From positions 2,656,001-2,720,000 of the forward strand of contig CAVWVQ010000003.1 of assembly GCA_963758525.1 (NCBI GenBank): DNA of 64,000 nt, written 5' to 3'. This document shows, piece by piece, positions 22,471 through 53,691 of this stretch (the first letter of the stretch is position 1; every line of letters starts with the position of its first letter). The translations under genes were made by a program, and so were the position numbers. This DNA is from an uncultured Phycisphaerales bacterium. Its GTDB lineage: Bacteria; Planctomycetota; Phycisphaerae; Tepidisphaerales; Tepidisphaeraceae. A model generated the notes under the pieces. That model saw only the letters and a list, made by a program, of their open reading frames with translations. It was not told the DNA's origin and searched no databases.

Positions 22471-22944
22471 CTAAGGAGCAACAGCCACCACCCCGACATT
22501 CGGATCATCGGGGCACGGTACCTGCAGGACGCTCCGGCTTTTGTCATTCGCCTGATCCACCCAATCCTTATCACCCGGCTTCTTAATCAATACCTCTGAA
22601 GGGGAGAGCCCCATTGCCGTTATGCCAGCGGCATGCATCCGCTCCAGTTCATCCTTTCCTTTTGGCGAGTACTTCAGGAGATACCCTGCAAATTCCTTCT
22701 TACCGCAACTGAAGACGTAGCACTGAACCGCTTCTTTGCCGTTGTGATCCACGGGCGCGACGAGCTTGCTGTTGTCAGCAAACCAGGTTTTTCCGTCATC
22801 GACCGTGAAGAACACGCTGGCCGGGCCCAGCTGGCGGTGAGAACGGAGTTGCGAGATCGAGACCGCAATTGCAATCACGGCAGCCGCGATCACTGCGGCG
22901 ATGAAGATAATCGGATTCCGGTTGATGGTTTCGCGCACCGACAT
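22471..22944 (-). CDS. Uncharacterised membrane-anchored 'DDG' prepilin-partner protein (paralog 1)
   Basis: N-terminal TM helix. FFTVDDGKTWF, PVDHNGKEAV, VFSC, YLLKY, KKPG..WV and CP are shared with the ORFs at 25784 and 53212. Confidence 0.8.
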   Translation of the reverse strand: MSVRETINRNPIIFIAAVIAAAVIAIAVSISQLRSHRQLGPASVFFTVDDGKTWFADNSKLVAPVDHNGKEAVQCYVFSCGKKEFAGYLLKYSPKGKDELERMHAAGITAMGLSPSEVLIKKPGDKDWVDQANDKSRSVLQVPCPDDPNVGVVAVAP

Positions 22945-22995
22945 ATTGGGCACCTCTGGCAGGTTGATTCATCCGAACGGCGACTGACGTGTCCA

Positions 22996-24042
22996 TCACT
23001 GATCCGGCGTATTCATTCTGATCTTGTCGTCGTCCCAGTTGAGGTAATAGTGCTCGATGTACGCGATGCCCGAGTTCCAGGTCGGCCCGCCGTTGGCTGC
23101 TATATTCGGCGTTGCGGTTGTTGACGTCCACGGCTGCCATGTCCATCGGTCGTGATTGCAGTTGGTATAGTAGCCGCCCCAGGTGGTGTGATCGGAGGTC
23201 GCGGGAGAGCCAAGCGGAATATTCCCGTACCCTCCCCGATTACCCTGGGAAAAGCTCTTCTCCAGATTATCGCTGGAATCGGAGAGGATCTGGGCGGACC
23301 CGTCGAAGAACGCGCAGGAGAGTCCCTTGTTATGACCGACTTGCAACAGCGCGTCCTTTCTCCAGAAACTGCCAGTCCAGGCTTCCCAGAAGATGTCCAT
23401 CACCATCGGAGTATCCGGAGCGGCCCGGGTGATGTTGTGAGCCCAGGCCCAGTTGCACTTTCGCTGAGCTCCCGAACCTATGTTCGCTGCCACCGAGGGA
23501 GCATAAGCTGTATCGGCAATGGCGACGATGTAGCCCCCGTTCAGGTCGCCGTTAAACGCGCCACCAGGCCATGCGCCATTCCACAAGCCTGGATTCCACG
23601 TCGTTCCATCGCTGATGCTGGTCAACTGCGGAGCCGATTGCCAGTCGAAGCTCCACAGATCATCAGATGCCCGGCCCGGGCAATAGCAAAGATGCACATC
23701 GGTCAAATAGTTGCGGTAGAGCAGCGTTCCAGCTCCAGTCGGCCAGGTCTTGATGGCCCCGTTCACATAAATCTTTTGGGCAGGGCTGCAGCGCAGGAAG
23801 AACGTGTACCCGACCGGCCATCCCGTTCCATCGACGATGTTCGCGGGGAGTGAGCCCTTATTCTCGTTGGCATACATCAGATTGGCGGCCGCGATCTGCC
23901 GGACATTGCTGAGACACTGAATCTGTCTCGCTGCCTGCCGCGCCTTGCTGAGCGCGGGCAACAGGAGACTGACCAGTATCGCGATAATGCCAATCACGAC
24001 GAGCAACTCAACAAGAGTCAAACCGTTTCTTGGTTTCCGCAT
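22996..24042 (-). CDS. Type IV prepilin-like protein (N-terminal cleavage/methylation, H-X9-DG motif)
   Basis: [51 protein letters not shown]. Confidence 0.9.
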
Positions 24043-24057
24043 ATTTGCACGTGCGAA

Positions 24058-24089
24058 CTATTTGAGCCGTGGATCGCCCAGCGACACGA
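24058..24089 (-). repeat. Orphan copy of the last 10 codons plus stop of the fecR-like gene (cf. 26334-26365)
   Basis: CTATTTGAGCCGTGG(A/G)TCGCCCAGCGA(C/G)ACGA, 30/32 identical. Encodes VSLGDPRLK*. Confidence 0.85.
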
Positions 24090-24130
24090 GACATGGATGC
24101 AATGGTTTCACAAGCTTCCCGGTGAAAAAC

Positions 24131-24865
24131 TCACTGCGTCGCGACGTTGTCCCCGTAGAACTCATTGACGGTGCGGACCCACTCGTCGGCCAGAAGTTGC
24201 TGGCCGCTGAAGGTGGGATGAACTCCGTCCCAGATCCAGTAATCCGCCGGGGCGCGCTTGCAGGCATCTTCGTACACGTTCTGCAGTTTCACGAGGGGCG
24301 CATGGTACTTCGTTGCGAGATTCGCGACGATCTCCTGCCGCTTGAGCAATTCCATGTGGTATGCGTCCCAGTTCTCTTTCTTCTTGCCAGTGGGCAATCC
24401 GAATGGCTCGCACAATACCAGGCGCACGTGCGGCAATGCCTTGACCGTCTCAGCCAGCAATTCGTCGTAGCGCTGCTGGTAATCAGCTGCGCTGACGCCG
24501 CCGTTGAGATCGTTGACCCCGACCAGAATGCTCAGGATGTCGGGCTTGAGATTGAGCGTGTCTGTCTTCCACCGCGCCGCAAGATCATTGACCTTATTTC
24601 CGCTCACGCCCCGGTTAATGAACGTCAGATGTCGCTCCGGAAGCATCGCGCCATATTTGGCTCCGATGATAAACGCGTAGCTATGGCCCAGCACGTGATT
24701 GGGATCGGCGCTTCGACCGCGATTCATGTCGGTAATCGAGTCACCTTGAAAGAGGATGACGTTCCCTTCCTTAAAGGCAGGCATCTCGTTCTTCTCGGCC
24801 GCTGAGGCAATTACAGCTCCAACCAATGGGACGAGACTGGCGATTAAGGTGAGGTAATGTCGCAT
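24131..24865 (-). CDS. Secreted SGNH/GDSL hydrolase (esterase)
   Basis: Signal peptide; FQGDSITD, NRGVSG, GVND and DGVHP blocks. Confidence 0.9.
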   Translation of the reverse strand: MRHYLTLIASLVPLVGAVIASAAEKNEMPAFKEGNVILFQGDSITDMNRGRSADPNHVLGHSYAFIIGAKYGAMLPERHLTFINRGVSGNKVNDLAARWKTDTLNLKPDILSILVGVNDLNGGVSAADYQQRYDELLAETVKALPHVRLVLCEPFGLPTGKKKENWDAYHMELLKRQEIVANLATKYHAPLVKLQNVYEDACKRAPADYWIWDGVHPTFSGQQLLADEWVRTVNEFYGDNVATQ

Positions 24866-24879
24866 TTCAAGCGTGTCCT

Positions 24880-25698
24880 TTAGTACCACCACCACTGCCC
24901 CCATTGCTGGCCGTTCCAGTGCTCCGCGGACATATTGCCGACTGCTGAGCTGGCTGCATTATTAAGAGGGTTGACATAAGGTGCCGTGACCCACTCCCCG
25001 TGACCATCGGTAAACACCTGATTCGCTCCCGATACGTGCATCAAGCCCGCTGCGTCCTGATAAAATGCGTGGTTGATTGTCCATCCAACGCGGAACGGGT
25101 CCGCCGTCGCATATTGAACAATGTCGCCGAAGAGCGGGAGCGGTGCCCCATTGTTGGTTGAATCGACGGATTCGAGTCCGATGCGAGTAGGGCGCATCGC
25201 CGCCTTCCTCTCATATGATTGAATGGGCGGCAACCCCCACCCGTTGCCGAAATACATGTACGAAGTGCATACTGTATCAAAATAGACGAAATTGTTGCGC
25301 GTGTTGAAGTACGGGTTGCTGGGACATTCCCAGACTTCGCTGATGGCCTTCGGCTGATCGGTCACTGTGCCCGGGTCAGGGTAACCCATGGCAATGTACA
25401 TCCGAGTGATCATCCCGTTCACCCACATCGCCGATTGTGCCGGATTGTATTTGAATGAGTTGGTTCCGTTCTGGTGATTGCGCAGATCGAGCGGATAGCG
25501 TCCCTTGTTCTCGTTGGCATACATGATGGCGCTCAATCCGATCTGCCGAAGATTGCTCAGGCACTTGGTTTTATTGGCGGAATCGCGGGCCCTGGCCAGC
25601 GCCGGGAGGAGAAGCCCAATCAGCACCGCGATAATGCCGACTACCACCAATAGCTCAACAAGGGTAAAGCCGCTGCGAGTCTGCTCCGCTCGAACCAT
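24880..25698 (-). CDS. Type IV prepilin-like protein (H-X9-DG motif)
   Basis: [52 protein letters not shown]. Confidence 0.9.
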
Positions 25699-25783
25699 AA
25701 TCAACCTCGTGCTTTCTGCGGCGCGATCCAATTCGCGATTGCCGTAAAGCATAAGTGGCTGTCGGTGGTTGGCAGGCCTGCTC

Positions 25784-26314
25784 TCACTTGGTCGCTCCGT
25801 TGTCAGAATCAATGGGAGAGACCGGCACGAGACCCTCGGATCCACCGCCAGGACAAACCGGGGTGATGATGCGGAGGTATTCCTTGTAGGCAACGGGCTT
25901 CGTGATATCGCCTTGCACCCATATTATCTCCGCCGGTCGCTTCACTTCCATCGGTTCATCAATCATATCCGCTGCCGGCTTGTTTGCAGCGAATGCCGCA
26001 GTGATCCGCGCCTTTGCGGCATCGCTGTAGCGTTCAAGATAGCCAACGAACGGCCTGCCTGCCCCGCAGCGAAAGACCTCCGCCCGGACTGCTTGTTTAC
26101 CGTTGTGATCGAATGGCGCAAGCCTGGATCGATCGTCGATGAACCACGTTTTGCCGTCGTCGTCAGAATAAAACACCTTTGCGATTGAAACCGCAGCGCT
26201 CGCCCTTCCCTTCAAAAGCTGGATGAGAATAAACGTCAGCGCGATGAGAATCGCGACCACCGAAGCGGCCATCAAAAGTTTCTGCTGTCGGTTGATCGTA
26301 TCACGCACACTCAT
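25784..26314 (-). CDS. Uncharacterised 'DDG' prepilin-partner protein (paralog 2)
   Basis: TM helix; [37 protein letters not shown]. Confidence 0.8.
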
Positions 26315-26333
26315 TTGGATTCTGCACCAGCGA

Positions 26334-27941
26334 CTATTTGAGCCGTGGGTCGCCCAGCGAGACGACATCCCAGTCTAAACCATCACCTCCGTCGGTCGAT
26401 ACCAATGTCAGCGAATGCGCGGCGGGTTCGATGGGAACGTCAACGTCGAACGGCGGGTCCATGAGATGGATCAATTTGTGTGAACGGAGATCGCCGTCCA
26501 CGAACACCCAGAACTCCGATCGATCGGAGACTTTCCGACCAGTTCGTTCGACATATGCATTGATGTTCACGCACACAGCCACAAAATGCGAGAACGGCCG
26601 GTTGGGGTGCGCATTGCGAAGGGCATCGAGATCGAAGGTAATCCCTTTGTTTGCATGGAGCCGGAGTAATCGATGACCCGAGGAGGCGTAATCGATCGCC
26701 CCGATCCTGCCCGTGTTTGTCGGCTCAATACCCACCCGTGTCTCGATGTTTCCGGGCCAAATGTCCTGATATGCAAGATTGCAGGTCGGCGGAAAAATGT
26801 ACTGATCTCCAGCCGCGTCGAGCGTGTCAGGCTTTGGCCCGCCATGCGGGATGAAGACGCCCAATGGCAGGGAGGGACAGGGATGGAACTTCCCATCCCC
26901 GGGAACGCCGCGATTCAGTGCGGTCTGAACGCTGCGCTTATCTGTCGGCACCGGAAGGATCGTCCCACTCGCGATATCGATCCCGCCATTCGACTGGCGC
27001 TGCGTTCCGTCTCCGCCGGCGATCAGGTCCACCAGATCAATTGCCGGGACATCCTGGACAAAGTTTCCCGTGTGGCACTCAATCCTTTGCGCCGAACTGA
27101 CGCCCACATCGACGCGGGCGGCCTGCTCGGCCGAGAGGAGCAGCGCGGCTCCGCCGGCCTTGGGCGTTACTTCAACCGTGCCGCGGATGACATGCGTTTC
27201 GGTATTGCCTGCCTTGTCCACGATGATGCCGAACTCGGTGCCCAGATCGACGGTGCGTGAGGAAGGAGTCACAATGGTAAATCCGTGGGCGTTGGGAGGT
27301 ACGCTCACCGTGATTTTGCCGAGTTGGAGCGAGACGCTGTTCTGAGATTGAATTTCGAAATGAGAGGGCCCCTCGACCACGAGTGAAACGCCATTGTCCA
27401 GGCGGATCTGGGCCAACCCGCTGGCCAGTTGCAGCGGTCCAGCAGGAAGGGGCTGCCCGTCGTGTGGTGGCTGAACTGCGGTGTCCCAGACGGCCGAGGC
27501 GCTGGCGACCAGATCTCCGCCGGGTTTGGCGGGACGAAGAATCGACCAGAGCACAATACCAACAAGAACCGGGATCGCTATTGCAGCGGCGAGCCGCCAA
27601 AGCCGGCGCTGTGACGAAGATTTTGGCGGCGCGACGGGCGTTGTGGCAGGGGGCTGGGGTGATGCATCGGGTGCCGCGTCGGAGCTGGCCTCGTTTTCAG
27701 GTTCCAGCGTGATGGAAGGAAGAATCATCGCGTCGTCAAGTGAAGTGCCCAGAGAGGCGGTTTCTTCCAGAAGCTGGCGACCGCGCATGACCTGGCGCAG
27801 GCGCTGGTGGATCATCGACGCTCTGGTCACGATCCTGGCGTGAAGGGGATCTTCCTTCACCCAACGGCAGAGTTCAGCCGCCTCGGCTTCGTCCAGAAGC
27901 CCGTCGAAGTGTTTATCGAGAATTTCCATCGGGTCTTTCAT
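26334..27941 (-). CDS. FecR-domain anti-sigma factor with a C-terminal NPCBM/NEW2-like domain (cassette A)
   Basis: N-terminal helical domain, TM segment, FecR motif TVDLGTEFG..ETHVIRGTVEV, C-terminal HANKGITFDL..VFVDG..LTLVSTDGGDG..GDPRL. Confidence 0.85.
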   Translation of the reverse strand: MKDPMEILDKHFDGLLDEAEAAELCRWVKEDPLHARIVTRASMIHQRLRQVMRGRQLLEETASLGTSLDDAMILPSITLEPENEASSDAAPDASPQPPATTPVAPPKSSSQRRLWRLAAAIAIPVLVGIVLWSILRPAKPGGDLVASASAVWDTAVQPPHDGQPLPAGPLQLASGLAQIRLDNGVSLVVEGPSHFEIQSQNSVSLQLGKITVSVPPNAHGFTIVTPSSRTVDLGTEFGIIVDKAGNTETHVIRGTVEVTPKAGGAALLLSAEQAARVDVGVSSAQRIECHTGNFVQDVPAIDLVDLIAGGDGTQRQSNGGIDIASGTILPVPTDKRSVQTALNRGVPGDGKFHPCPSLPLGVFIPHGGPKPDTLDAAGDQYIFPPTCNLAYQDIWPGNIETRVGIEPTNTGRIGAIDYASSGHRLLRLHANKGITFDLDALRNAHPNRPFSHFVAVCVNINAYVERTGRKVSDRSEFWVFVDGDLRSHKLIHLMDPPFDVDVPIEPAAHSLTLVSTDGGDGLDWDVVSLGDPRLK

Positions 27942-27945
27942 GCAG

Positions 27946-28455
27946 TTACGACGCCATCCTCGCCTCTATACAGTCGCGCAGCGCCGCGCGCACGCGGTGC
28001 AGCGCGACATTAATCGCCCGAATATTGCTCCCCATCCGGCGGGCGATGTCATTGGGTTTGAGATTCTCCTGATAGCGCATTTCAACAAGATTCCGCGCCT
28101 TGTTCGCCAGCCGTTTGAGGCAGTGATCCATCGCATCGTGCAGGGGGCCCTGTTCGTGCTGAGCCTGGACGTGAGCCTCGGCCAGGGCCTGCAGGGCCTC
28201 CGAATCGAAGACCAACTTGTCGGCCGACTGACGCCGGTGCGAGTCCATCGCTTTGTTGCGGGCGATCCCGATGACCCAGGCATTGAACGACTGTGGCACG
28301 CTCCGCGACGGTTCGTGCGAAAGGACCGCCGCCGCCACTTCCTGCAAAACGTCCTGGGCGTCGTGGTAATCGGGAATCAGCAGTGATATGTAGGAATCAA
28401 CCAGCGGCTGAGCCGCCGCCCATTTCCTGGCGACATCTTCAATCGCGCTGTTCAT
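27946..28455 (-). CDS. ECF sigma-70 factor (cassette A)
   Basis: DAQDVLQEV, FNAWVIGIARNK, region 4 LVEMRY..IA..ALHRVRAALRDCIE. Confidence 0.92.
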   Translation of the reverse strand: MNSAIEDVARKWAAAQPLVDSYISLLIPDYHDAQDVLQEVAAAVLSHEPSRSVPQSFNAWVIGIARNKAMDSHRRQSADKLVFDSEALQALAEAHVQAQHEQGPLHDAMDHCLKRLANKARNLVEMRYQENLKPNDIARRMGSNIRAINVALHRVRAALRDCIEARMAS

Positions 28456-28520
28456 GCGGGAAGTCTCCCGAAATGCCTCAGACAGGTCCGAATCGCCTAA
28501 TCCATCATCCCTCGCCACTT

Positions 28521-28552
28521 ATTACGTCGCAACTGATACCCCGATTCTTACA
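28521..28552 (-). promoter_or_regulatory. Putative ECF promoter for sigma operon A
   Basis: TGTAAGAAT-N14-CGACGTAAT on the minus strand. Confidence 0.7.
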
Positions 28553-28576
28553 ACGAAATGCCCATTTTTATTTTTC

Positions 28577-28608
28577 TGTAAGAATTTACCGGCCAATTAC
28601 GACGTAAT
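28577..28608 (+). promoter_or_regulatory. Putative ECF promoter for surface-protein gene A
   Basis: TGTAAGAAT-N14-CGACGTAAT on the plus strand. Confidence 0.7.
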
Positions 28609-28674
28609 GGGGAACGCCGGTATGTCTGGCAACGGCGTTACATTCCAGGTTTTGCGAAGGAACGGTGGAGAGAG

Positions 28675-32219: not shown

Positions 32220-32336
32220 TCAGGAAGCCACGGGTTGCGGGACGCCGGACCCCATCCCATCGGGGCACGTTGGGATCATCATCGCCGGCGCAGTGGGATC
32301 GCTCTGGTGAATCCATTGTGAATCCCCGGGCTTTTT
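32220..32336 (-). pseudogene. 3' fragment of a fourth 'DDG' protein gene
   Basis: Encodes KKPGDSQWIHQSDPTAPAMMIPTCPDGMGSGVPQPVAS*, almost identical to the C-terminus of 53212..53691. Confidence 0.85.
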
Positions 32337-40275: not shown

Positions 40276-40302
40276 TCTGGTTCCATCGAACGACAACGGA
40301 GA

Positions 40303-44787: not shown

Positions 44788-47700
44788 CTATATCCCTGGA
44801 AGTTCTCTGCTCCGCCGGCGGCGGGCGCTCAGCATCGGCAGCGCGCCGGCGAGCATCAGCATCGCCGAGCCGGGTTCGGGAGCGGCGTTGTAATCGAGGA
44901 CCAGATCGTAGGTACCGGAGACATTGACAAACTCCAGCGAGAAGATGCCTGTGGGCGGCGTGGCACCATTAATCGTCAGGCCGCTGCCGAAGTTGGATGT
45001 GTCGAGGGCAAAGACGTTGCTGCCGCTGCCGCTGGGAGTCGTCGTCAGCAGATTTGCGGTGCTGGTGCCGGACGTTGTGGTCAGTGAGCCGGCGGACGTT
45101 CCCGGCAGCGATGGAATGGTGTTGGACTGTCCGATGATCCAGCTATAGGTGCTCGTGTTGCTGGCGGTTGTCAGAGGACTGAGGTTGGCGGCCGCGATCG
45201 TGAACGGCTGATTTGATCCGCCCGACGAGACGGTCAGCCCGCTCATGCTGATGTCGTCCCAGTTCACGCCAGGCGTACCGCTGGCGCCGCTTCCGGGCGC
45301 CGCCGGTGTGGTTCCCAGCGCGGCGATCTTCCATTCGTAGGCCGCACCGCCGTTCCATGTCTCGTTACCCGTGGTGAGCTTTCCCGAGGTGAGGGCGTCC
45401 GCTCCCGCGGTGATGATGCCGCCATTCCTGGCAGCGGCATTTCCGGTGAGGGTGACCGCTCCTTTGACGGTGCCATTTCCACCAAGAATGCCGCCGGTAT
45501 AGGCGGTGCCGTTGCCTATCCCCACCGTCACGCTGCCGTTGCCAGTTGAGCTGGTGGCATTGTTAGCGCGAATTGTGCCAGCCGATATGGTTGTTCCGCC
45601 GGCATAAAGATTCTGCCCCGACAGCGCCATGGTGCCGGCGCCCGTCTTGGAGATTCCCGATCCGCCATTCTCCGCGATCACGCCACTCACGTTTAGATCG
45701 GTTACGGCGGCACCTTTGGCCACGCTGAACCCCAATGTCCCGCTGCGAATGACGAGCGGTGCGCTGATGGTTGATGTCGTGGCACTGGCGTTGGTGGTGA
45801 TCCCGAATCCCGAGCTGAAGTTGTAGCCGTGCATTCCATCGAACGCGCCGGTTTGCGACATCGTTCCGCCGGTGAGCACGAAGTTGGTGATGAAACCGTT
45901 GTTATTGGTGTTGACCGAGTTGTTGAGGGTGCCGCCGTTGATGTTCACCGTGGGCACCGAAGTGCCGCTGCTGTACCCAAGCGCATCATTGGCAGTCAGG
46001 CTAACAACCGCTCCAGAACTAATAGTGAGCGTGCCTCGAATGGTGCCAGCGGAGCCGCCGGTCGCCAACGTCAATGTTCCAGCACTCACTGTAGTCGCGC
46101 CCGTATAACTGCTTGCGCCGGACAGGGTCAGCGTCCCAGATCCGACCTTTATTAACGCGCCCGACGAGCCGTTGTCCTGGATAATGCCGCTGAACGTCGT
46201 GCTCGCATTCAGATTCCCGATAGCGAGATTACCCGCATCCTGGAGATAGCCGAAACCTGCGAGAGAACCAAAATTCACGGTCTCGCCGCCACTGACACGG
46301 AAGCTGGAACTCGCGTTGTTGCCGCTATTGCTGAAGACAACACTCGCATTGGAAAGGTCGAGAGTGGTAGTTGGTGCGAAGACGTTGACAGTTTTTTGAG
46401 TCCCGGCGGAAGTACTGTAGGTCAACGTACCTGTGAATCCGCTCCAGTTCACCCCGCTGCCGAGAAACACGGATAGAGCGGTGCCGCTCGAGTTTTGAAT
46501 CGTCGCACCTCCGCTGCCGGTCAAATTGCCGTTGATGGTTGAACCCCCAATGATGTCGATCGTTGACGAGGTGCCGGCGGCGGCAATGAGATTATTGCCC
46601 AACGTTACGGTGTTCATCTGCAGGGTGCCGCCGCTCAGGGTGACATTGCCTGTACCGAGTGCGGAATTGTTGTTCAATCGCAGTGTGCCGGCGTTGAGCG
46701 TCGTTCCGCCGCTGTACGTGTTCGACGCGGTCAAAATCGCCAGACCCGGACCATTCTTGACCAGGATCGTTGGGTGCGAACCATCAACGATTTGAACCTG
46801 GATCTCGCTGTCCGTCAGCGCTGTATTGGGATTGTAAAGAAATAATTCACCGCTGGTCAGGCCGGACGTGATATTCCCGCTTCCCTTGATCCACTTACTA
46901 TTGGCACCTTGATCGATGAGGCCACCGCTGGCGAGCGTCAGCGCGCCGTTAATCGTTATGTCGCCGCTGCCGTTTTCGATCAGCGTGTTGATCGTTCCGC
47001 CGGTGGTATTCAGGCCATCGCCCACCCAGTTCGCGGTCGATGAGGCGGTTGTTGTCGTGGCGGCGGCCGTGATGGTATAGGTGCCGCTGCTGCTGCCGCT
47101 GTGAGCCCAACTGTAGGTGCTGTTGCCGTTATCGATCACCGCCCAGCCGCCAATCATCCCGCCGTTCACATCCAAACTGGTGGTGGTAATGTTCCCCGTT
47201 GTGGTGAATTTGACGGTGCCGCCGCTGCCCGCGGTCTGCGTCAAATTGCCCAAATTGAGCGTGTCGGTGGAGACGGTGATATTGATAGCGGATTGCCCGC
47301 CCGCGTTGATCGTCGTGGTCGTAAAGGATTGCGAGTTCGTGCCGGCTTTCGAGTAATTGAATGTCCCGCCACCGAAGTTCAGGGCCGTTGAGCTCAGGGA
47401 GCCGGTGAGCGTGAGCGTACCGGCGTTAATGGTGGTAGGGCCGGTATAACTTTCCGTGTTGGAGAGTGTGAGCGTGCCCGTGCCGGTTTTCGTGAATCCG
47501 GCGCCGGAGTCGGAAATCACCGAGGCGATGGTTGCCGTGCCGGCGATGTCAAAGTTACCCCCGGCAGCGAGAGTAAGATTCAAAGTGCCGGTGCTGGCGT
47601 TGCCGATGGCAAGGTTGCCGCCGGATGCGATGTATAGGAGGTCGCCTGCGATTCCGGAAACCGAGTTGTTGCCGCCGTTGAGCGTGATCGTGCTGGTGCC

Positions 47701-48057
47701 GCTGCCGTTGGTGTTGTTGATGCTAAGCGTTTGCGTCGCGTCCAAGTCATTAAGCGTGCCGATGTTCAGGTTGAACGAGGGGGCATTCAGCGTGAATGCC
47801 GTGGGGGAATAGGTGGTATTGGTGAATTGGATGTCATTGGAAGTGAGTGGCGCACCACCACTAAAGCTTCCATTGCTCGTCAAGTCGGCTGAACCGTTGA
47901 GGACGCTGTTGGCCGTGTTCGCGCTCGCTCCCACGCTGCTTACAACAGTGGACAACGTCGCGGCCGCGGCCAGCGAAAGCCGTCTCATTGTCTTGTTGCG
48001 GCGAGCCAATTGGGGGGAAATGGTTCTGCCGCCGATGAATCCGTTGCGAACTTGCAT
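44788..48057 (-). CDS. Autotransporter-associated beta-strand-repeat surface protein with PEP-CTERM (cassette B)
   Basis: Paralog of 28675; TKTGTGTLTLSN repeats; APEPG..RRRRSR tail. Confidence 0.9.
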   Translation of the reverse strand: MQVRNGFIGGRTISPQLARRNKTMRRLSLAAAATLSTVVSSVGASANTANSVLNGSADLTSNGSFSGGAPLTSNDIQFTNTTYSPTAFTLNAPSFNLNIGTLNDLDATQTLSINNTNGSGTSTITLNGGNNSVSGIAGDLLYIASGGNLAIGNASTGTLNLTLAAGGNFDIAGTATIASVISDSGAGFTKTGTGTLTLSNTESYTGPTTINAGTLTLTGSLSSTALNFGGGTFNYSKAGTNSQSFTTTTINAGGQSAINITVSTDTLNLGNLTQTAGSGGTVKFTTTGNITTTSLDVNGGMIGGWAVIDNGNSTYSWAHSGSSSGTYTITAAATTTTASSTANWVGDGLNTTGGTINTLIENGSGDITINGALTLASGGLIDQGANSKWIKGSGNITSGLTSGELFLYNPNTALTDSEIQVQIVDGSHPTILVKNGPGLAILTASNTYSGGTTLNAGTLRLNNNSALGTGNVTLSGGTLQMNTVTLGNNLIAAAGTSSTIDIIGGSTINGNLTGSGGATIQNSSGTALSVFLGSGVNWSGFTGTLTYSTSAGTQKTVNVFAPTTTLDLSNASVVFSNSGNNASSSFRVSGGETVNFGSLAGFGYLQDAGNLAIGNLNASTTFSGIIQDNGSSGALIKVGSGTLTLSGASSYTGATTVSAGTLTLATGGSAGTIRGTLTISSGAVVSLTANDALGYSSGTSVPTVNINGGTLNNSVNTNNNGFITNFVLTGGTMSQTGAFDGMHGYNFSSGFGITTNASATTSTISAPLVIRSGTLGFSVAKGAAVTDLNVSGVIAENGGSGISKTGAGTMALSGQNLYAGGTTISAGTIRANNATSSTGNGSVTVGIGNGTAYTGGILGGNGTVKGAVTLTGNAAARNGGIITAGADALTSGKLTTGNETWNGGAAYEWKIAALGTTPAAPGSGASGTPGVNWDDISMSGLTVSSGGSNQPFTIAAANLSPLTTASNTSTYSWIIGQSNTIPSLPGTSAGSLTTTSGTSTANLLTTTPSGSGSNVFALDTSNFGSGLTINGATPPTGIFSLEFVNVSGTYDLVLDYNAAPEPGSAMLMLAGALPMLSARRRRSRELPGI

Positions 48058-48115
48058 GTCTCTCCGCCGGTTTTATTCGAACTGCCCACGGCGATGCACA
48101 ACCCGCCGTTCTCCC

Positions 48116-48146
48116 CTATGTCGCAGGCGGCACCCGAATCGTTACA
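48116..48146 (-). promoter_or_regulatory. Putative ECF promoter for surface-protein gene B
   Basis: TGTAACGAT-N14-CGACATAG on the minus strand. Confidence 0.7.
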
Positions 48147-48198
48147 AAAAATTGAGAATTCGGTTTCCCCGTCAGATTCTTCGCCGATGCCATTTTTG

Positions 48199-48229
48199 TG
48201 TAACGATTGGAAGGTTGGCTGCGACGTAT
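48199..48229 (+). promoter_or_regulatory. Putative ECF promoter for sigma operon B
   Basis: TGTAACGAT-N14-CGACGTAT on the plus strand. Confidence 0.7.
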
Positions 48230-48294
48230 CTGCAGGCAGTATGATGCGTCGATGACGTTGGCCTTGCGTCCCAGAGACGCATTCGAGTGTCCGA

Positions 48295-48819
48295 ATGAAT
48301 GAATCAATCGAGGATGTTGCCAGGAAATGGGCTGCGGCACAGCCGCTGGTTGCTTCGTTTATTTCCTTGATTGTATCGGACTTCCATAACGCACAAGACG
48401 TGCTGCAGGAGGTCGCGGCGGCGGTGTTGTCTCACGACCCATCCCGCAGCGTCCCCGAGTCGTTTAACGCGTGGGTCATTGGGATCGCCCGTCATAAGGC
48501 GTTGGATTTTCATCGCCGTCAGACCCGCGACAAACTGGTCTTTGACTCAGAGGCGCTGTCGATCCTCGCCGAGGTGCATCAGGAGGTTCGCCAGGACCAG
48601 GGGCCGCGCCGCGAGGCCATGGAGCATTGTCTCAAGCGGCTGGCTTCCAAGGCGCGCCGGCTCATCGAACTGCGCTACCAGGATGATATGAAGCCGGGCG
48701 CGATCGCCGGGGCGATGGGGAGTAACGTCAGCGCGGTGAAGGTCGCGCTCCACCGCGTGCGGGCGGCGCTGCGGGTCTGTATTGAGGCGCGGCTCAGTTC
48801 TGGAATCGAGCTGACATGA
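48295..48819 (+). CDS. ECF sigma-70 factor (cassette B)
   Basis: Close paralog of 27946; NAQDVLQEV, FNAWVIGIAR. Confidence 0.92.
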   Translation: MNESIEDVARKWAAAQPLVASFISLIVSDFHNAQDVLQEVAAAVLSHDPSRSVPESFNAWVIGIARHKALDFHRRQTRDKLVFDSEALSILAEVHQEVRQDQGPRREAMEHCLKRLASKARRLIELRYQDDMKPGAIAGAMGSNVSAVKVALHRVRAALRVCIEARLSSGIELT

Positions 48820-50411
48820 AGGACCCGATGGCACTTCTCGACGAACACTTCGACGGCATCCTCGATGAAGCCGGGGCGGCAGAGTTGTCGGCATGGGTGA
48901 AGCAGAACCGTCGCAACGCCCGCCTTCTGGTCGATGCCGCGCGGTTGCACCAGGATCTTCGCGAACTGTTCCTTGGCCGCCGGCTTTTGGAAGAGGCGGC
49001 ATCATCAGGCACTTCGCTCCATGACGCGATGATCCTCCCCGCTATATCGCTTCCAGCCAATGATGAAGCGGAGGCGCAGACCCCTCCGGTGGCAACGGTA
49101 CCGACTCGCATTGAACCATCGACGTCGCGTTTGCGTCATCGGTACTGGAAAATCGCCGCTGCGATCGCGATCCCGATTCTGGCCGGCATCGTACTCTGGT
49201 CAGTCCTTCGCCCCGCCAAACCCGGCGGAGCTCTGGTCGCCAGCGCCTCGGCCGTTTGGGACAATGCAGTTCAGCCACCACACGACGGGCAGCCCCTTCC
49301 TGCTGGACCGCTGCAACTGGCCAGCGGGCTGGCCGAGATACGCCTTAATAACGGCGTTTCACTCGTCGTTGAAGGCCCGGCGCATTTCCAGCTTCAATCT
49401 CAGAACAGCGTCGCGCTTGAACTGGGCAAAATTACGGTAAGCGTACCTGCCACTGCCCACGGATTTACCATTCAGACTCCCTCCTCGCGCACCGTCGATC
49501 TGGGGACAGAGTTCGGCGTCATCGTGGACGACGCCGGAAATACCGAAACGCATGTCATCCGCGGCACGGTTGAAGTAACGCCCACCGCCGGTGGCGCAGC
49601 GCTGCTCTTCTCGGCAGACCACGCGGCACGCGTCGATGTCGGCGCCACTTCGGCGCAAACGATTGAGTGCCACGCGGGGAATTTTGTGCAGGACGTCCCG
49701 GCAATCGACCTTGTGGACGTCATCGCCGGCGGAGACGGGACGCAGGGACGGTCAAATAGCGGGATCGATATGGCCACTGGCAAAGCCTTGCCGGTGAAAG
49801 TCCCGGCAGGCATGAACCCCGGGCCCGAACCAACGATTCGCGGAGACGGAAAGTTCCACCCCTGCCCCTCCCTGCCATTGGGTGTCTTCATCCCGCATGG
49901 TGGGCCGACGCCTGACACAGTCGACGCTGCCGGCCACCAGTATATTTTCCCGCCCACGAGCAACCTTGCGTATCAAAACATTTGGCCCGGATCCGCCCAG
50001 CATCTGCTGGGTGGCGATTCGCCTACCACTGGTATGACCAAAGAGAATGGCTACCCGGCGCCGGGTCACCGATTACTCGAACTTCATGCCAATAAAGGAA
50101 TCACGTTCGATCTCAATGCACTGCGCACCGCTCATCCCGACCGGCCATTCTCGCATCTCGTCGCCCGTTGCGTGAATATGAATGCATATGCCGAACCAGT
50201 GATCGGTGCAATAGTCTCCGATCGATCGGAGCTTTGGATATTTGTGGATGGCGATCTCCGTGCACACAAGCTGATTCATCGCATGGACCCGCCATTCGAT
50301 GTTGACGTTCCCATCGAACCCGCTTCGCATTTTTTGACATTGGTGGTGAGCGACGGAGGAGATGGCTTCGACTGGGACGTGGTGTCGTTGGGTGATCCAA
50401 GGTTAAAATGA
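48816..50411 (+). CDS. FecR-domain anti-sigma factor with an NPCBM-like domain (cassette B)
   Basis: ATGA overlap with sigma. Close paralog of 26334. Confidence 0.85.
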   Translation: MKDPMALLDEHFDGILDEAGAAELSAWVKQNRRNARLLVDAARLHQDLRELFLGRRLLEEAASSGTSLHDAMILPAISLPANDEAEAQTPPVATVPTRIEPSTSRLRHRYWKIAAAIAIPILAGIVLWSVLRPAKPGGALVASASAVWDNAVQPPHDGQPLPAGPLQLASGLAEIRLNNGVSLVVEGPAHFQLQSQNSVALELGKITVSVPATAHGFTIQTPSSRTVDLGTEFGVIVDDAGNTETHVIRGTVEVTPTAGGAALLFSADHAARVDVGATSAQTIECHAGNFVQDVPAIDLVDVIAGGDGTQGRSNSGIDMATGKALPVKVPAGMNPGPEPTIRGDGKFHPCPSLPLGVFIPHGGPTPDTVDAAGHQYIFPPTSNLAYQNIWPGSAQHLLGGDSPTTGMTKENGYPAPGHRLLELHANKGITFDLNALRTAHPDRPFSHLVARCVNMNAYAEPVIGAIVSDRSELWIFVDGDLRAHKLIHRMDPPFDVDVPIEPASHFLTLVVSDGGDGFDWDVVSLGDPRLK

Positions 50412-50424
50412 ATTAGGTGCATAG

Positions 50425-53181
50425 ATGCGGAAACGAGCACGCGATTTTACTCTTGTTGAGCCGCAGCGCTGCCTCAGGCGAAGATCCAAATCAGCTTTCA
50501 TCTCTGAAGGGGCTTCTTGTCAACGGCGAGACGGCTTGATTGCTAAGTTCCGTTCATTGCTCTCTCCGATCAGCTTCGCGCACTCCCCCTGCGCCCTTGG
50601 CGGGGAGGCTAACGAGGCGGGGGTTTGGGGGCAGAGCCCCCAAGTCTTTGTCGTTCTCGGCGGAACCGTGGCTGCCATCCGGCACCGCGCGGGCGGCGCG
50701 ATGCGGCGGTTGAATTCATCTCTATGCGGTCATCGGACGGACGGGTCGCAATGCCAGGCCGTGTGTTCCGAGCCGAATAAAACCTTGTTCGCGTCAACCG
50801 GGCCGAATTCACACTGTCGCAGTCACCAGCAGAACCCGAATCCGACGCCAGTGGCGTCCGATTCGAACCAATGCCTGCCGGGCCGAATGAAGCCGAGTCG
50901 CGGTCTCCAGATTGACGAGACATCGTCTTGCATGGCTGCAAGAACTATTGATGTCATAAGCGTTCCGCCGAACCGCTGGTCATGCCAGGATCATCTCCTC
51001 TTCTTGTTTGACAGGTTGTTGCTTAGCAGATTGTTGCTTGAGCCGGGCCTTGTTGGCCGCCCGCTCGTGTCCGGTGGGCTCCTGGCCCTGGTAGGCCGTC
51101 CCGTCGCGGACCATGGCAAAGAGGACACGCAGCAGGCGTCTTCCCATCGCGACGTTCGCCTTGGGCTTGACCATGTGTCCGATCAGCCGCTGGCGGATCG
51201 CCTCCTGCTTCGCGTCGGAGCGGCAGAGGGTGACCGCGGCCTTGCACAACGCCCAGCGCAGCGTGGCGCTGCCCGCCTTGGTGATGTGACCCGACTGGGT
51301 CCGGCCGGCCGACTCCTGGTTGTCGGGAGTCAATCCCGCCCAGAACTCGAGGGTGTCGGCGTTGGGAAAACGGGAGAACTCGCCGATCTCCGCGGCGATG
51401 ATGCACGCCCAGATCTCGTCGATTCCCGGCACGCTCTTGAGAATCGCAATCAGGGAGGCGAATCGCCGGTCGCGGTTGGCAAAAATGATTTTCCTGCGCA
51501 GGCATTCCCGCTGTCGCTCGATCAGGCAGACCAGGTCCAGGAAGTTGCCGAAGGCTTCGCGCTGCACGTCCTTGAGCAGATCGCCATTGGCCAGCAGCCA
51601 TTTCTGGGCGCCGGCGCCGTCCAGCTTGGGACCGCGAATGTTGGCGGCCAGGAGCATCGACCGCATGGCGTGCTTGGCGCGGGTGAGGGTGCGGGACAAA
51701 TGCCGCCAGTGCCGGCCGAGCTTGCGGAGCTGCATCACTGCTTCGGGGGCGATCCATCCCAGCGGGCACTCCCCGCGGGAGAGGCGCTGGGCGATGTCGG
51801 CCGCGTCCTTGCGATCGGTCTTGCGCCGCTTACCCCGGAGGTTGGACAACTGCGTCGCGTCGGCGATCTCGATCTTGTCCACGCAGGAGCGGAAGCGGTC
51901 GATGAACCACTCGACAAAGCCGACGGCTTCCACTGCCAGGCGGCTGGGACGCGGCAACGCCAGCATCCATTTTTCGATGCGGTCAACGCACTTGGTGTCA
52001 CAGGTCAGCGCGGCGATCTGCGTCCCCGAAGCATCGACAGCACACAGCGAGACGGTACACTTATGCAAATCCACGCCGACGAACGCGGCGTACGAAACAG
52101 GCACATCAGACATAACAAACTCCGTGTTAGGGACCAAGGGAACTTAGAACACTCCCGGAAGCGTAACGGCTTCCGCAGGCCCCTTCACGGTTTTACGCTG
52201 GTGGAACTCCTCGTTGTTATTGGAATCATCGCTGTCTTGATTGCATTATTGCTTCCGTCCCTCCAAAAAGCGCGACAGCAGGCCAGGTACGTCAGATGGC
52301 AGGCTTTCAGCCGTGATTTGTCGATGGATCCCAGCGTCATCGTCCATTACGACATGCAGAATGATGCGGGAACCTCCTTCCTGACGAATATGGCCATGGG
52401 TAATGCCCGAGACCCATCAATGGTCCCGTCCAATCTCGACGCGCAGATTCTCGACTGGTCGCAGAGCCCCTTTCCGCTGCTCTCGGTCAACTATCCCGGG
52501 CAGGTGGCCGCACTATGGTCGAATAGCGGGCGATTCCCGGGAAAGCCGGCCCTGTCGTTCAACCCAACGCTCACACCCAACGCCATGGCCTACATCGGAC
52601 AGCGGAACAATGGAATCGGTCGGATCGCCAACATGCTGCGCAAAACGCAGGCCTACACGCTTTTGTACTGGGTCTATGTGCCCCGTCCGGCTGTTGACAA
52701 CCAGCTCTTTGTGTATTGGGCTGGCAAGGGCAATTCTGCACAGATCGTGGTCACCACGGATATGGCCTGGGGCGGGAACGTCAACGCCTCGCAGGGGAGC
52801 GGTTTTGGCGGTTCCCCTACCATGACCTCATTTTCCACCGGAACAGGAGCGATTCCATTCACCTATGGGCAAGACTCGCGGTGGAATCTGTTTGCCTTCA
52901 CCAGCGATCGCAGATCTGGAGTTGCCAAGCTCTATCAGAACGGCGTGCTGGTCGCCTACCAGCAGTCGGGCAACCAGTTGATCGTCGGCCCTGACGTGGC
53001 GTATCCAACCGGCAGCGATCCTGGCGCATTGGTCTTTGGAAATTGGCCGAACCACGGTGAGAACAATATCGTCTGCGACGAATTTGGACTTTTCGACTCT
53101 GATCTTTCTCCCAACGACCCATTGATACTGGGCACCATTTCGCCACGCTTTTTCCCGATGTACACTGTGGGCGTGAATTAA
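50425..53181 (+). CDS. Type IV prepilin-like protein with a C-terminal LamG-like domain, carrying an in-frame IS1111-type insertion (host parts 50425-50500 and 52196-53181)
   Basis: Reconstructed native N-terminus [48 protein letters not shown]. LamG-like [24 protein letters not shown]. Confidence 0.85.
50514..50979 (-). ncRNA. Predicted seekRNA/bridge-RNA region of the IS1111-type element (exact ends unknown)
   Basis: Noncoding region 3' of the transposase with hairpins (about 50626-50641, 50813-50823, 50838-50864, 50926-50943) and segments matching the target and donor junctions. Confidence 0.6.
50980..52113 (-). CDS. IS110-family DEDD transposase/recombinase
   Basis: VGVDLHK, AVEAVG and KTDRKDA (DEDD); [30 protein letters not shown]. 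Confidence 0.95.
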
Positions 53182-53211
53182 CCTGACCGGCCCCCAAACC
53201 GATGCGTGTCC

Positions 53212-53691
53212 ATGGCGCTTAGAGAATTCTTCAGTCAAAACCCCAAGGCGGTCGCCACAGGGACCGTCCTGGTGCTGGCAGCTTGCCTTGTTGTGATCTT
53301 TTCCGAGTTGAACGGCGGCGGAAAACCCAGGTTGCCGATCATGCCTGATCAGGCATTTTACACCACTGACGACGGCGCTACCCTCTTCGCCGATTCCCTC
53401 TCCAAAGTTTCCCCAATCGACCATAATGGGCATCAGGCTGTGCGGGCCCACGTCTACAGCTGCGATGGAGGGCGCCATCGATGGGTGCAGTATCTGGAAA
53501 AGATGACCGAGAAAGAGAAAACAATCGCTGAATCTCCCGAGCAATCCCGCAGCCATTCGTTCGATCCTCTGATCAAAAAGCCGGGGGATTCAAAATGGGT
53601 CCACCAGAGCGATCTCACTGCGCCGGCGATGATGATCCCAAAGTGCCCCGACGGGATGGGCTCAGGCGTGCCGCAACCCGTCGCCCCCTGA
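53212..53691 (+). CDS. Uncharacterised 'DDG' prepilin-partner protein (paralog 3)
   Basis: TM helix; FYTTDDGATLF, PIDHNGHQAV, VYSC, YLEK, KKPG..WV, CP. Confidence 0.8.
   Translation: MALREFFSQNPKAVATGTVLVLAACLVVIFSELNGGGKPRLPIMPDQAFYTTDDGATLFADSLSKVSPIDHNGHQAVRAHVYSCDGGRHRWVQYLEKMTEKEKTIAESPEQSRSHSFDPLIKKPGDSKWVHQSDLTAPAMMIPKCPDGMGSGVPQPVAP

What the first reader, a model, noticed from the sequence alone, without database searches (positions are those of the whole stretch)
22471..53691. Repeated ECF sigma - FecR/NPCBM - prepilin - DDG partner cassette with a divergent PEP-CTERM surface protein: candidate pilus-based glycan sensing/uptake system
Seen: two inverted copies (22471-32058 and 44788-53691) with the same gene set, surrounded by an SGNH esterase, a lyase, GH29 and beta-helix genes. 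There is no TonB-dependent receptor in either copy. Established: sigma-FecR pairs normally precede TonB-dependent receptors (FecIRA, Bacteroidota SusC/D loci), and planctomycetes have large prepilin/H-X9-DG families of unknown role. Inference: here a variable pilin plus a small partner takes the receptor position, and the anti-sigma senses carbohydrate through its NPCBM-like domain, giving a PUL analogue built on type IV filament subunits.
Basis: partly seen in the sequence, partly recalled or inferred. Interest (0 to 1): 0.8.

Follow-up and report, generated by a model that had tools for sequence, protein, structure and literature searches.

The report
RNA-guided transposon hides in pilin leader
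These repeated gene cassettes likely let a planctomycete sense plant sugars and display matching pilus and surface proteins, and one pilin gene carries a jumping element of a widespread family that lands in frame on the codons where pilin precursors are cut and rebuilds that cut site, so the cell's own peptidase would trim the intruder away.

Summary
The two cassettes are real. They are 2 of 11 sigma–FecR pairs in this genome, all within 8 kb of a prepilin and none near its 7 TonB-dependent receptors. The anti-sigma ends in a CBM51-fold domain, and an ECF-like promoter points only at the sigma and PEP-CTERM genes. The full gene set is not conserved: in relatives, FecR loci keep prepilin and PEP-CTERM genes but not DDG (0 of 20), and pilin–DDG pairs sit beside LacI/XylR regulators instead. 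Pilin and DDG are predicted to bind. "Pilin replaces the receptor" is unsupported; a glycan-induced surface-display locus is likely.

The stronger find is inside copy B: an IS1111-group element (50500-52194) inserted after the Phe codon of the prepilin G|FTLVE motif. Its predicted bridge-RNA guides spell those codons, its antisense frame is stop-free for 565 codons, and its end re-encodes a basic leader plus G|F. Relatives do the same: 52 of 65 abut a prepilin motif, and 34 of 38 complete elements are in frame and stop-free. Processing by prepilin peptidase is inferred, not shown. Earlier scan notes report hairpins and nucleases in prepilin leaders of other DNA, but no IS110; my literature searches found no description.

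The parts
50500..52194 (.). IS1111-group (IS110 family) element, 1695 bp = 565 codons, inserted after the Phe codon of the prepilin G/A-F-T-L-V-E motif; stop-free in the pilin frame; its last codons read [13 protein letters not shown]
   Evidence: 4 of 4 genome copies have the same junction
50980..52137 (-). DEDD transposase, antisense and in codon register with the pilin frame
   Evidence: NF033542 185 bits, cut-off 140; PF01548+PF02371
50700..50917 (-). predicted bridge/seek RNA core in the non-coding region downstream of the transposase
   Evidence: 30-sequence alignment, 23 of 53 predicted pairs with compensatory change
50888..50894 (-). predicted left target guide GGCTTCA (matches Gly/Ala-Phe codons plus A)
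50808..50816 (-). predicted right target guide CAGTGTGAA (complement reads Phe-Thr-Leu codons)
50777..50784 (-). predicted donor guide GGTTTTAT (matches the joined element ends)
   Evidence: invariant in 30 aligned sequences
50718..50723 (-). predicted second donor guide AGAGAT (complement of the element's first bases)
50505..50513 (+). sub-terminal inverted repeat TGAAGGGGC (partner GCCCCTTCA at 52179-52187)
50425..53181 (+). copy B prepilin: native leader, element, then mature LamG-headed pilin from 52192; one 918-codon ORF
53206..53691 (+). DDG protein of copy B; single N-terminal membrane helix, Asp-box-like DDG motif; predicted partner of the pilin
48816..50411 (+). FecR-type anti-sigma with NPCBM/CBM51-like C-terminal domain (copy B)
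   Evidence: 72% identical to copy A
48295..48819 (+). ECF sigma, TIGR02989 subfamily (copy B)
48200..48225 (+). ECF-like promoter motif facing the sigma (copy B)
48120..48145 (-). ECF-like promoter motif facing the PEP-CTERM gene (copy B)
44788..48057 (-). PEP-CTERM protein with autotransporter-associated repeats (copy B)
28675..32058 (+). PEP-CTERM protein with autotransporter-associated repeats (copy A)
   Evidence: TIGR02595 15.3 bits, just under the cut-off of 16
28578..28603 (+). ECF-like promoter motif facing the PEP-CTERM gene (copy A)
28526..28551 (-). ECF-like promoter motif facing the sigma (copy A)
27946..28518 (-). ECF sigma, TIGR02989 subfamily (copy A)
26334..27941 (-). anti-sigma: N-terminal helices, one membrane helix, FecR beta domain (137-298), CBM51-fold domain (298-535)
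25784..26317 (-). DDG protein (copy A, upstream of its neighbouring prepilin)
24880..25755 (-). prepilin with H-X9-DG motif
24131..24904 (-). SGNH/GDSL esterase
22996..24042 (-). prepilin with H-X9-DG motif
22471..22953 (-). DDG protein (copy A, directly downstream of prepilin)

Best explanation
The region holds two copies of a likely sugar-induced surface-display cassette, and copy B's pilin gene carries an IS1111-group element that sits in frame on the prepilin cleavage codons and rebuilds them with its own end, so that the pilin would be made with a 589-residue leader that prepilin peptidase would cut off. Element, step by step. Shown: the insertion point (after the Phe codon of G/A-F-T-L-x-E), length a multiple of three, no stop in the pilin frame through transposase and non-coding region, and a basic leader plus G|F encoded by the element's end. 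Predicted: a bridge RNA whose target guides spell Gly/Ala-Phe and Phe-Thr-Leu codons steers the recombinase to the one sequence that dozens of prepilin genes share. Inferred: ribosomes read from the native start through the element; the pilin's hydrophobic helix still anchors the chain; the host peptidase releases a normal pilin, so the insertion costs little. Cassette, step by step. Shown: linkage of sigma, anti-sigma, prepilin and PEP-CTERM genes with glycan-degrading enzymes and without a TonB receptor. Predicted: CBM51 fold on the anti-sigma, paired promoters, a pilin-DDG dimer. Inferred: oligosaccharide reaching the periplasm is bound by the anti-sigma itself; the freed sigma turns on its operon and the PEP-CTERM gene; DDG holds its own pilin in the inner membrane as a chaperone for one of the genome's type IV filament machines; pilin head and PEP-CTERM protein bind the glycan at the surface.
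For: Element: 4 of 4 genome copies in prepilins at the same junction, although only 49 of 348 genomic matches to the guide consensus continue as FTL[VI]E. 52 of 65 related elements abut a G/A-F-T-L-x-E motif; 3 more contigs end within it, 1 has another flank, 9 gave no readable right end. Of 38 elements with both ends, 35 have a length divisible by three (27 distinct lengths in all, 1590-1899 bp) and 34 are stop-free in the pilin frame (31 of 34 clusters at 95% identity). Non-coding region stop-free in 36 of 38 in the pilin frame, 0 of 38 in each other frame, 0.5 expected after shuffling. Transposases use TTA/CTA 3 times in 1455 Leu codons and TCA once in 579 Ser codons. Controls: 10 of 10 other Planctomycetota IS110 transposases have 1-9 antisense stops; 109 of 680 host genes of like length have an open antisense frame. 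Guides match each element's own flank at synonymous positions: 29 of 35 against 19.9 shuffled, 17 of 35 against 9.6, 13 of 35 against 8.4. Two copies sit in consecutive minor-pilin genes of a PilB/GspE-PilC-PilM cluster; relatives sit in GspG-like and PilA-like genes. Cassette. Pilin B with its DDG: score 0.62, best control 0.00; the mark was reached by 116 of 157 solved complexes and 2 of 215 mismatched pairs; runs agree in at least 68% of contacts, partner pLDDT at least 78. Prepilin peptidase, secretins, assembly ATPases and exosortases are in the genome.
Against: No processing, translation or transposition was measured. 4 of 38 complete elements break the rule (three out of frame, one with two stops); 7 of 66 transposase stretches have antisense stops, four of them beside a prepilin motif; the distant element L251 has a stop just before the rebuilt site, followed by a Met. 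Some element-encoded leaders have hydrophobic windows up to 2.55 (6 of 34 above 2.0; the window's own 1.33), which might misroute the chain. Related elements are kin, so counts overstate independence. The guide match at Leu position 1 did not exceed shuffles (27 of 35 against 25.9). Cassette: DDG is absent from 20 of 20 FecR regions in relatives, and 42 of 86 DDG loci have no adjacent prepilin, so DDG is not an obligate partner. Only one pilin-DDG pair was folded, both chains have a membrane helix, and non-cognate pairs were not tested. No sugar ligand was tested. The promoter pattern was derived from the four sites it finds.
Confidence: 0.62

Rival explanations
1. One reading: pilin plus DDG act as the receptor that passes a signal to the FecR anti-sigma and take up glycan through a filament.
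For: 11 of 11 sigma-FecR pairs have a prepilin nearby and no TonB receptor; prepilin in 15 of 20 FecR regions of relatives; pilin B's LamG head is homologous to the LamG sensor domain of a paralogous anti-sigma (E 4e-8).
Against: DDG in 0 of 20 FecR regions elsewhere; pilin-DDG modules more often beside LacI/XylR (17 of 44) than sigma-FecR (1 of 44); the anti-sigma has its own lectin-fold domain; copies A and B have 72% identical anti-sigmas but unrelated pilin heads.
Confidence: 0.15
2. Each pilin-DDG pair is a substrate-specific adaptor that brings the co-encoded PEP-CTERM protein or enzymes to a type II secretion machine, and never forms a binding tip.
For: PEP-CTERM genes accompany 25 of 44 pilin-adjacent DDG loci; the predicted dimer packs the pilin's membrane helix against DDG's, which would keep it out of a filament; several GspE/PilB ATPases and 4 secretins in the genome.
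Against: Lectin-fold (LamG) heads on four pilins suit glycan binding; no evidence of contact with cargo.
Confidence: 0.2
3. The cassettes diversify an adhesive coat or biofilm matrix and are unrelated to feeding.
For: Large repeat-rich PEP-CTERM proteins; remnants of shuffled gene ends around copy A.
Against: Fourfold excess of degradative enzymes nearby (21 of 106 against 5 of 106); sugar-type regulators; CBM96, LamG and esterase domains on PEP-CTERM partners in relatives (6 of 15 tested).
Confidence: 0.15
4. The element simply knocks out or restarts the pilin: translation begins at a start codon near the element's end, and the open antisense frame is a by-product of high G+C content.
For: An in-frame ATG lies about 40 codons before the rebuilt site; L251 has a stop then a Met there; 16% of host genes of like length have open antisense frames.
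Against: Restarting needs neither a length divisible by three nor a stop-free non-coding region 400-600 codons upstream, yet both hold (35 of 38, 36 of 38); every indel seen in the aligned bridge-RNA core is a multiple of three; other IS110s of like G+C have stops (10 of 10).
Confidence: 0.17

Closest known systems
IS1111 group of the IS110 family, with bridge/seek RNA (PMC11187229 passages; PMC11208160 passages and section 12)
   Same: DEDD transposase, sub-terminal inverted repeats, long non-coding region downstream of the transposase, internal RNA loops matching target and donor.
   Different: The targets named in the passages I read are REP and attC sites; here the target is a protein-coding motif, the element is dual-coded (open antisense frame across transposase and RNA) and rebuilds a peptidase site.
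Inteins and IStrons (recalled, no call)
   Same: Selfish DNA in a coding gene made harmless after insertion.
   Different: No splicing of RNA or protein is needed here; removal would be by a host peptidase acting on a leader it discards anyway.
Piv pilin invertase of Moraxella (recalled; only a reference title seen in PMC11208160; the paper was not held)
   Same: A DEDD recombinase acting on type IV pilin genes.
   Different: Piv inverts host pilin segments; this is a mobile element inserting itself.
Hairpin and GIY-YIG elements in prepilin leaders (earlier scan notes e1-1902359, e1-7053426, e1-5267319; unchecked)
   Same: In-frame insertion at the prepilin cleavage site, some rebuilding it.
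   Different: Those are 60-500 bp hairpins or nuclease genes in CPR bacteria and archaea; this is a 1.6-1.9 kb autonomous RNA-guided element in Planctomycetota.
FecIRA / Pup cell-surface signalling and Bacteroidota ECF-anti-sigma PULs (PMC7826278 passages)
   Same: ECF sigma followed by a FecR-fold anti-sigma (Z 16.8 to PupR), near carbohydrate enzymes.
   Different: No TonB receptor or SusD; a CBM51, LamG or other jelly-roll domain ends the anti-sigma; prepilin and PEP-CTERM genes are the linked partners.
Verru_Chthon cassette (TIGR02596-TIGR02600; layout recalled) and Akkermansiaceae MUL2 locus (PMC13174399, first half read)
   Same: Prepilin-type genes beside large PEP-CTERM repeat proteins (Verru_Chthon); pilus-like genes tied to glycan use in PVC bacteria (MUL2).
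   Different: Different proteins: the window's prepilins score 14-20 bits against cut-offs of 51-256; MUL2 is a single machinery locus with PilM, not a repeated regulated cassette.

Membership tests
IS110 family, IS1111 group | DEDD transposase (PF01548 + PF02371) | tested here: met
   NF033542 185 bits over cut-off 140; both Pfam domains
IS110 family, IS1111 group | sub-terminal inverted repeats with asymmetric end extensions | tested here: met
   9-10 bp repeat, 7 and 5 bases from the ends; the paper gives 11-13 bp and 7/3 as usual, 7-17 bp as range
IS110 family, IS1111 group | long non-coding region downstream of the transposase | tested here: met
   480 bp in the window
IS110 family, IS1111 group | structured RNA with loops matching target and donor | tested here: met
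   prediction only
IS110 family, IS1111 group | RNA-guided transposition through a circular intermediate | not testable with these tools
   needs a mobility assay
FecIRA-type cell-surface signalling | ECF sigma plus FecR-fold anti-sigma | tested here: met
FecIRA-type cell-surface signalling | linked TonB-dependent transducer under the sigma's control | tested here: not met
   none within 39 kb of any of 11 sigmas; none in 20 FecR regions of relatives with a profile of the genome's 7 receptors; promoter motif before none of 7
Bacteroidota PUL | SusC/SusD pair | tested here: not met
   no TonB receptor in the cassettes
Bacteroidota PUL | clustered degradative enzymes with a sugar-type regulator | tested here: met
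   21 of 106 against 5 of 106; LacI/XylR
Bacteroidota PUL | co-induction by the target glycan | not testable with these tools
   needs RNA data
Verru_Chthon cassette | proteins A-D above their family cut-offs | tested here: not met
   only N-terminal matches far under cut-off
Type IV prepilin | basic leader, G/A|F, Glu5, hydrophobic helix | tested here: met
   PF07963 and TIGR02532 over cut-off for all three window prepilins; net charge +3 to +9 in the last 21 element-encoded residues of 34 elements
Type IV prepilin | cleavage by prepilin peptidase and assembly into a filament | not testable with these tools
   peptidase and machinery genes present
CBM51/NPCBM | CBM51 fold | tested here: met
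   2vmi Z 14.8, rmsd 2.3, 137 aligned; Foldseek E 9e-7; Pfam score 21.6 is under the cut-off 23.9
CBM51/NPCBM | binding of galactose, GlcNAc or related sugars | not tested
   binding residues not compared; no assay
Known protein folds (DDG protein) | match to a solved structure or curated family | tested here: inconclusive
   only weak Asp-box hits; best Z 2.7

The most novel reading that the evidence does not exclude
A family of RNA-guided IS1111 elements across Planctomycetota is naturally programmed to the codons of the type IV prepilin cleavage site. It keeps a 530-630-codon antisense frame open through its own transposase and bridge RNA and re-encodes the cleavage site, so host prepilin peptidase removes it at the protein level: a transposon made harmless by a host protease instead of by splicing. 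It lives on the large prepilin families, which in Tepidisphaerales form receptor-less glycan cassettes where each pilin travels with its own new-fold chaperone.
Probability: 0.65. Interest if true: 0.88.

Novelty: new variant of a known kind. Interest (0 to 1): 0.8.

Why it matters
Bridge-RNA elements are studied as programmable editors, and the natural targets named in the passages I read are non-coding repeats. A family aimed at a conserved protein motif, with guides that vary at synonymous positions, shows how a guide RNA can exploit a large paralog family and how an element can stay harmless inside coding genes without splicing. It also predicts that prepilin peptidase accepts leaders of about 600 residues, a simple test. 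For annotation, such pilin genes are called as truncated or broken (the database gene for pilin B lacks its N-terminus, 285 aa). Separately, the cassettes give concrete genes, regulators and promoter motifs for the open question of how planctomycetes take up polysaccharide without SusC/D, and a first predicted partner for their unexplained prepilin expansions.

Tried and rejected
No RNA holder listed for the region; four DNA runs with small shares were laid: no contig bridged the insertion site, so no empty allele was seen, and no habitat is claimed. Rfam: no match in 20000-62000. DDG: no Pfam, NCBIfam or PDB sequence family, no fold match, Atlas hits only to unnamed Planctomycetota clusters with a recognition value under the reliable level; a missing match does not prove a new fold. 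The wide representative search never ran, so DDG's range beyond Phycisphaerae is only sampled (3 of 300 with a three-sequence profile). Idea that DDG loci always carry sigma-FecR: rejected. Idea of a target-site duplication at the IS: rejected, the ends are not duplicated. A loose promoter regex missed several paralogous cassettes whose paired motifs are visible by eye, so sigma-specific promoters are shown only for A, B and one more divergent pair. Similarity of pilins tracks that of their DDGs (Mantel rho 0.35, 22 pairs), but co-duplication explains this as well as binding, so it is not counted as support. A pair count on my own RNA structure was not obtained. Literature searches that found no description of the element or the cassette: (0 papers); subscription journals are mostly not covered. 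The supplement of PMC7826278 (ECF group descriptions) could not be read, and PMC3497475 and PMC178977 were not held; these may already describe planctomycete ECF groups with lectin-ended anti-sigmas or pilin neighbours.

Full report
What was checked. Copy A reads, on the minus strand, sigma, anti-sigma, DDG, prepilin, SGNH esterase, prepilin, DDG, with a PEP-CTERM repeat protein divergent from the sigma. Copy B is inverted and reads sigma, anti-sigma, prepilin, DDG. The copies are close only in sigma and anti-sigma (74% DNA identity) and in part of the PEP-CTERM gene (66%). A's prepilins carry H-X9-DG motifs; B's has a LamG head. The host is inferred to be a Tepidisphaerales planctomycete: the DDG family is found in 124 of 140 genomes of its order, and named records that carry it are mostly titled Tepidisphaeraceae or Phycisphaerales.

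The cassette in its own genome. The 6.47-Mb assembly (90.9% complete) has 28 DDG genes, 11 sigmas of this subfamily each followed by an anti-sigma, 65 prepilin motifs over the Pfam cut-off and 7 TonB-dependent receptors. 11 of 11 sigmas have a prepilin within 8 kb, 10 of 11 a DDG and 10 of 11 a large PEP-CTERM gene; random positions give 12%, 5% and 6%, and 17 other sigma-like ORFs give 2, 0 and 1. No sigma is within 39 kb of a receptor. 26 of 28 DDG genes abut a prepilin. In 18 regions fetched around the other DDG genes, 21 of 106 unlabelled genes have glycoside hydrolase, lyase or carbohydrate esterase domains (GH2, 28, 29, 35, 63, 78, 115, pectinesterase, alginate lyase). The control gave 5 of 106, drawn at random from 191 genes in 18 evenly spaced regions. 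Genes cluster, so this is a fourfold contrast and not a test. Regions without a sigma often have a LacI or XylR-type regulator (L012-L014), and a D-2-hydroxyacid dehydrogenase recurs in 7 of 18 regions.

Regulation. The anti-sigma model (pLDDT 78.5) has a membrane helix, a FecR domain (PupR, Z 16.8, rmsd 2.5, 130 aligned) and then a CBM51 fold (2vmi, Z 14.8, rmsd 2.3, 137 aligned). From my own knowledge, PupR uses that position for the subdomain that meets the receptor. Paralogs end in NPCBM-like, LamG or other jelly-roll domains. Each intergenic region of A and B has two back-to-back copies of TGTAA[CG]..-CGAC. The strict pattern occurs 4 times in the genome, all there, and a weight matrix scores them 33-34 bits with the next site at 18.6. 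The pattern was built from these sites, so what counts is the absence elsewhere, including before all 7 receptors. The predicted regulon of these two sigmas is their own operons and the PEP-CTERM genes.

Conservation. Anti-sigma relatives occur in 18 of 140 genomes of the order. In 20 regions from 15 genomes, chosen from 32 matches for score and contig length, I found sigma in 19, prepilin in 15, a PEP-CTERM-like gene in 15 (pattern match; Pfam confirmed 7 of 15 tested), DDG in 0 and a TonB receptor in 0. From the other side, 96 DDG regions (40 hand-picked; 56 of 58, the two weakest dropped) reduce to 86 distinct loci. 44 have an adjacent prepilin; of these 25 have a PEP-CTERM-like gene, 17 LacI or XylR, and 1 sigma-FecR. 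Of the 42 without, 2 have LacI or XylR. So the conserved core is regulator + PEP-CTERM + prepilin, the regulator is exchangeable, and DDG is optional. PEP-CTERM partners in relatives carry CBM96 (3), LamG (2) or an acetylesterase (1) among 15 tested.

DDG. It is a 160-180-residue protein with one N-terminal membrane helix and an Asp-box-like motif. The model is confident (pLDDT 91) and matches no solved fold (best Z 2.7). Folded with mature pilin B, it scored 0.62 against 0.00 for the best of three controls. The mark was reached by 116 of 157 solved complexes and 2 of 215 mismatched pairs; runs agree in at least 68% of contacts; partner pLDDT is at least 78. The two membrane helices pack together, and the best-placed contacts join DDG's variable linker (residues 41-49) to the LamG head. 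This supports binding and does not show it; one pair was tested. A cognate accessory gene behind a pilin recalls Pseudomonas TfpY/TfpZ (recalled).

The element. The 918-codon prepilin ORF of copy B contains, antisense, an IS110-family transposase. The element spans 50500-52194. All four copies in the genome follow a Gly/Ala-Phe codon pair and precede Thr-Leu-Val/Ile-Glu codons of a prepilin. Two of them are in consecutive minor-pilin genes of a cluster with a PilB/GspE ATPase, PilC/GspF, PilM and a nearby secretin. The element is 565 codons long, has no stop in the pilin frame, and ends [13 protein letters not shown].

Relatives of the element. A metagenome scan gave 63 loci, and two genomes of the order gave two more. 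52 of these 65 abut a G/A-F-T-L-x-E motif in frame; 3 contigs end inside the motif; 1 (L157) has another flank and four antisense stops; 9 gave no readable right end. The prepilins include DUF1559-type, Phycisphaerae-type, GspG-like and PilA-like genes. Both ends were readable for 38 elements, the window's included: 35 have lengths divisible by three, 34 are stop-free in the pilin frame, and the set spans 27 lengths from 1590 to 1899 bp. At 95% identity they form 34 clusters, 31 with an intact member. The non-coding region is stop-free in 36 of 38 in the pilin frame, in 0 of 38 in either other frame, and 0.5 would be expected after shuffling. The transposases avoid the three codons that read as antisense stops (3 of 1455 Leu, 1 of 579 Ser, against 2.4% and 6.8% in host genes). 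In a sample of 400 phylum genomes, 11 had a transposase match; the 10 not beside a prepilin all have 1-9 antisense stops, and the one beside a prepilin (L251, 34% identity) has none within the transposase but one just after it. Against the rule: L161, L175 and L184 are out of frame and L153 has two stops.

Guide RNA. The non-coding region lies downstream of the transposase, between 9-10-bp sub-terminal repeats, as in the IS1111 group (PMC11187229, passages; PMC11208160, passages and section 12). Its aligned core folds with compensatory changes in 23 of 53 pairs. One internal loop holds G[GC]NTTYA on one side and the complement of TTYACNYTG on the other, which are the Gly/Ala-Phe-Thr-Leu codons. 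A second region matches the joined ends. Across 35 elements the guide agrees with its own flank more than shuffled pairs do at three synonymous positions (29 against 19.9, 17 against 9.6, 13 against 8.4) and not at a fourth (27 against 25.9). All gaps in that alignment are multiples of three.

Mechanism. From established knowledge, prepilin leaders stay in the cytoplasm and are cut at G|F by an inner-membrane peptidase. An insertion that keeps the frame and rebuilds a basic leader with G|F would therefore yield a normal pilin from a long precursor. The simplest rival, restarting translation near the element's end, does not explain a length divisible by three or a stop-free non-coding region far upstream. 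Read-through and cleavage are inferred: I put them at about 0.7, the glycan-induced cassette at about 0.75, the pilin-DDG dimer at about 0.65, and pilin as the signal receptor at about 0.15.

Comparison and novelty. The element is a member of the IS1111 group on every feature I could test. Its target and its way of staying harmless are not described in the passages I read (PMC11187229, PMC11208160, bioRxiv 10.64898/2026.08.14.744561) nor found by searches. Earlier notes of this scan describe small hairpins and GIY-YIG genes in prepilin leaders of other organisms (unchecked, read after I had the result); none names an IS110. The cassette works like a polysaccharide utilisation locus but lacks SusC/D. 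Pili as glycan-catching rods in planctomycetes is a published hypothesis (PMC12078418 and bioRxiv 10.1101/2024.01.10.575047, passages), and a pilus-like locus is tied to glycan use in Akkermansiaceae (PMC13174399, first half). Passages of bioRxiv 10.1101/2023.06.09.544357 added nothing. I found no description of this regulator-PEP-CTERM-prepilin-DDG module, but an unread supplement of PMC7826278 may bear on the sigma group.

Verdict. Observation partly confirmed; interpretation partly supported. The cassette alone would rate about 0.55. The prepilin-targeting element is the better-supported and more surprising result and sets the score at 0.8.

Noticed in passing
window 22351-22465, 24046-24089, 32220-32337: Remnants of gene ends around copy A: a PEP-CTERM 3' end (84% to copy B's), an anti-sigma 3' end just upstream of the second prepilin, and a DDG 3' end (89% to copy B's). 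They suggest cassette modules are shuffled by recombination.
   Followed up: partly
window 34862-40353 and 54727-60209: 5.5-kb direct repeat, 99.2% identical, with a GH29 fragment and unknown ORFs; a 623-bp part also at 21265-21887. Real duplication or assembly artefact not settled.
   Followed up: partly
G000:C3:687588-688565 and C3:4773008-4774204: Two prepilins without an element have leaders ending SRRPLHG|F, like the element's end: possible scars of past insertions; similar scars precede elements L185 and L187.
   Followed up: no
G000:C3:4929957, 655731, 3069659, 2261147; C4:80429: Several prepilin leaders contain a shared short repeat (reading QFTRRGGCLRA in some frames) and doubled FTLVE stubs, as if a small non-autonomous element also uses these leaders.
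   Followed up: no
L003, L006, L012-L016: A D-2-hydroxyacid dehydrogenase paralog (8 genes in 7 of 18 regions) sits beside the PEP-CTERM or prepilin genes; also in 3 loci of relatives. Role unknown.
   Followed up: partly
window 52192-53178 and L006:14639-16366: The LamG head of pilin B and the sensor domain of LamG-type anti-sigmas share an N-terminal RW..S..L..DP motif (E 4e-8): the same lectin-fold module used on pilin and regulator.
   Followed up: partly
L034, L035, L039, L045, L050 and others: A class of DDG genes without a prepilin lies beside DUF883 and holin-like genes and a PfkB/cytidylyltransferase gene in many relatives; possibly the ancestral single-copy locus.
   Followed up: partly
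window 42334-44688; L011, L022, L047: DUF4159/prenyltransferase-like genes recur near DDG genes.
   Followed up: no
window 18963-20624: GloVer tandem-repeat protein fused to a GH19-like domain.
   Followed up: no
window 22-18465: Defence island: RNase H/helicase, type I restriction-modification pieces fused in one ORF, GmrSD, HD domain, Mrr.
   Followed up: no
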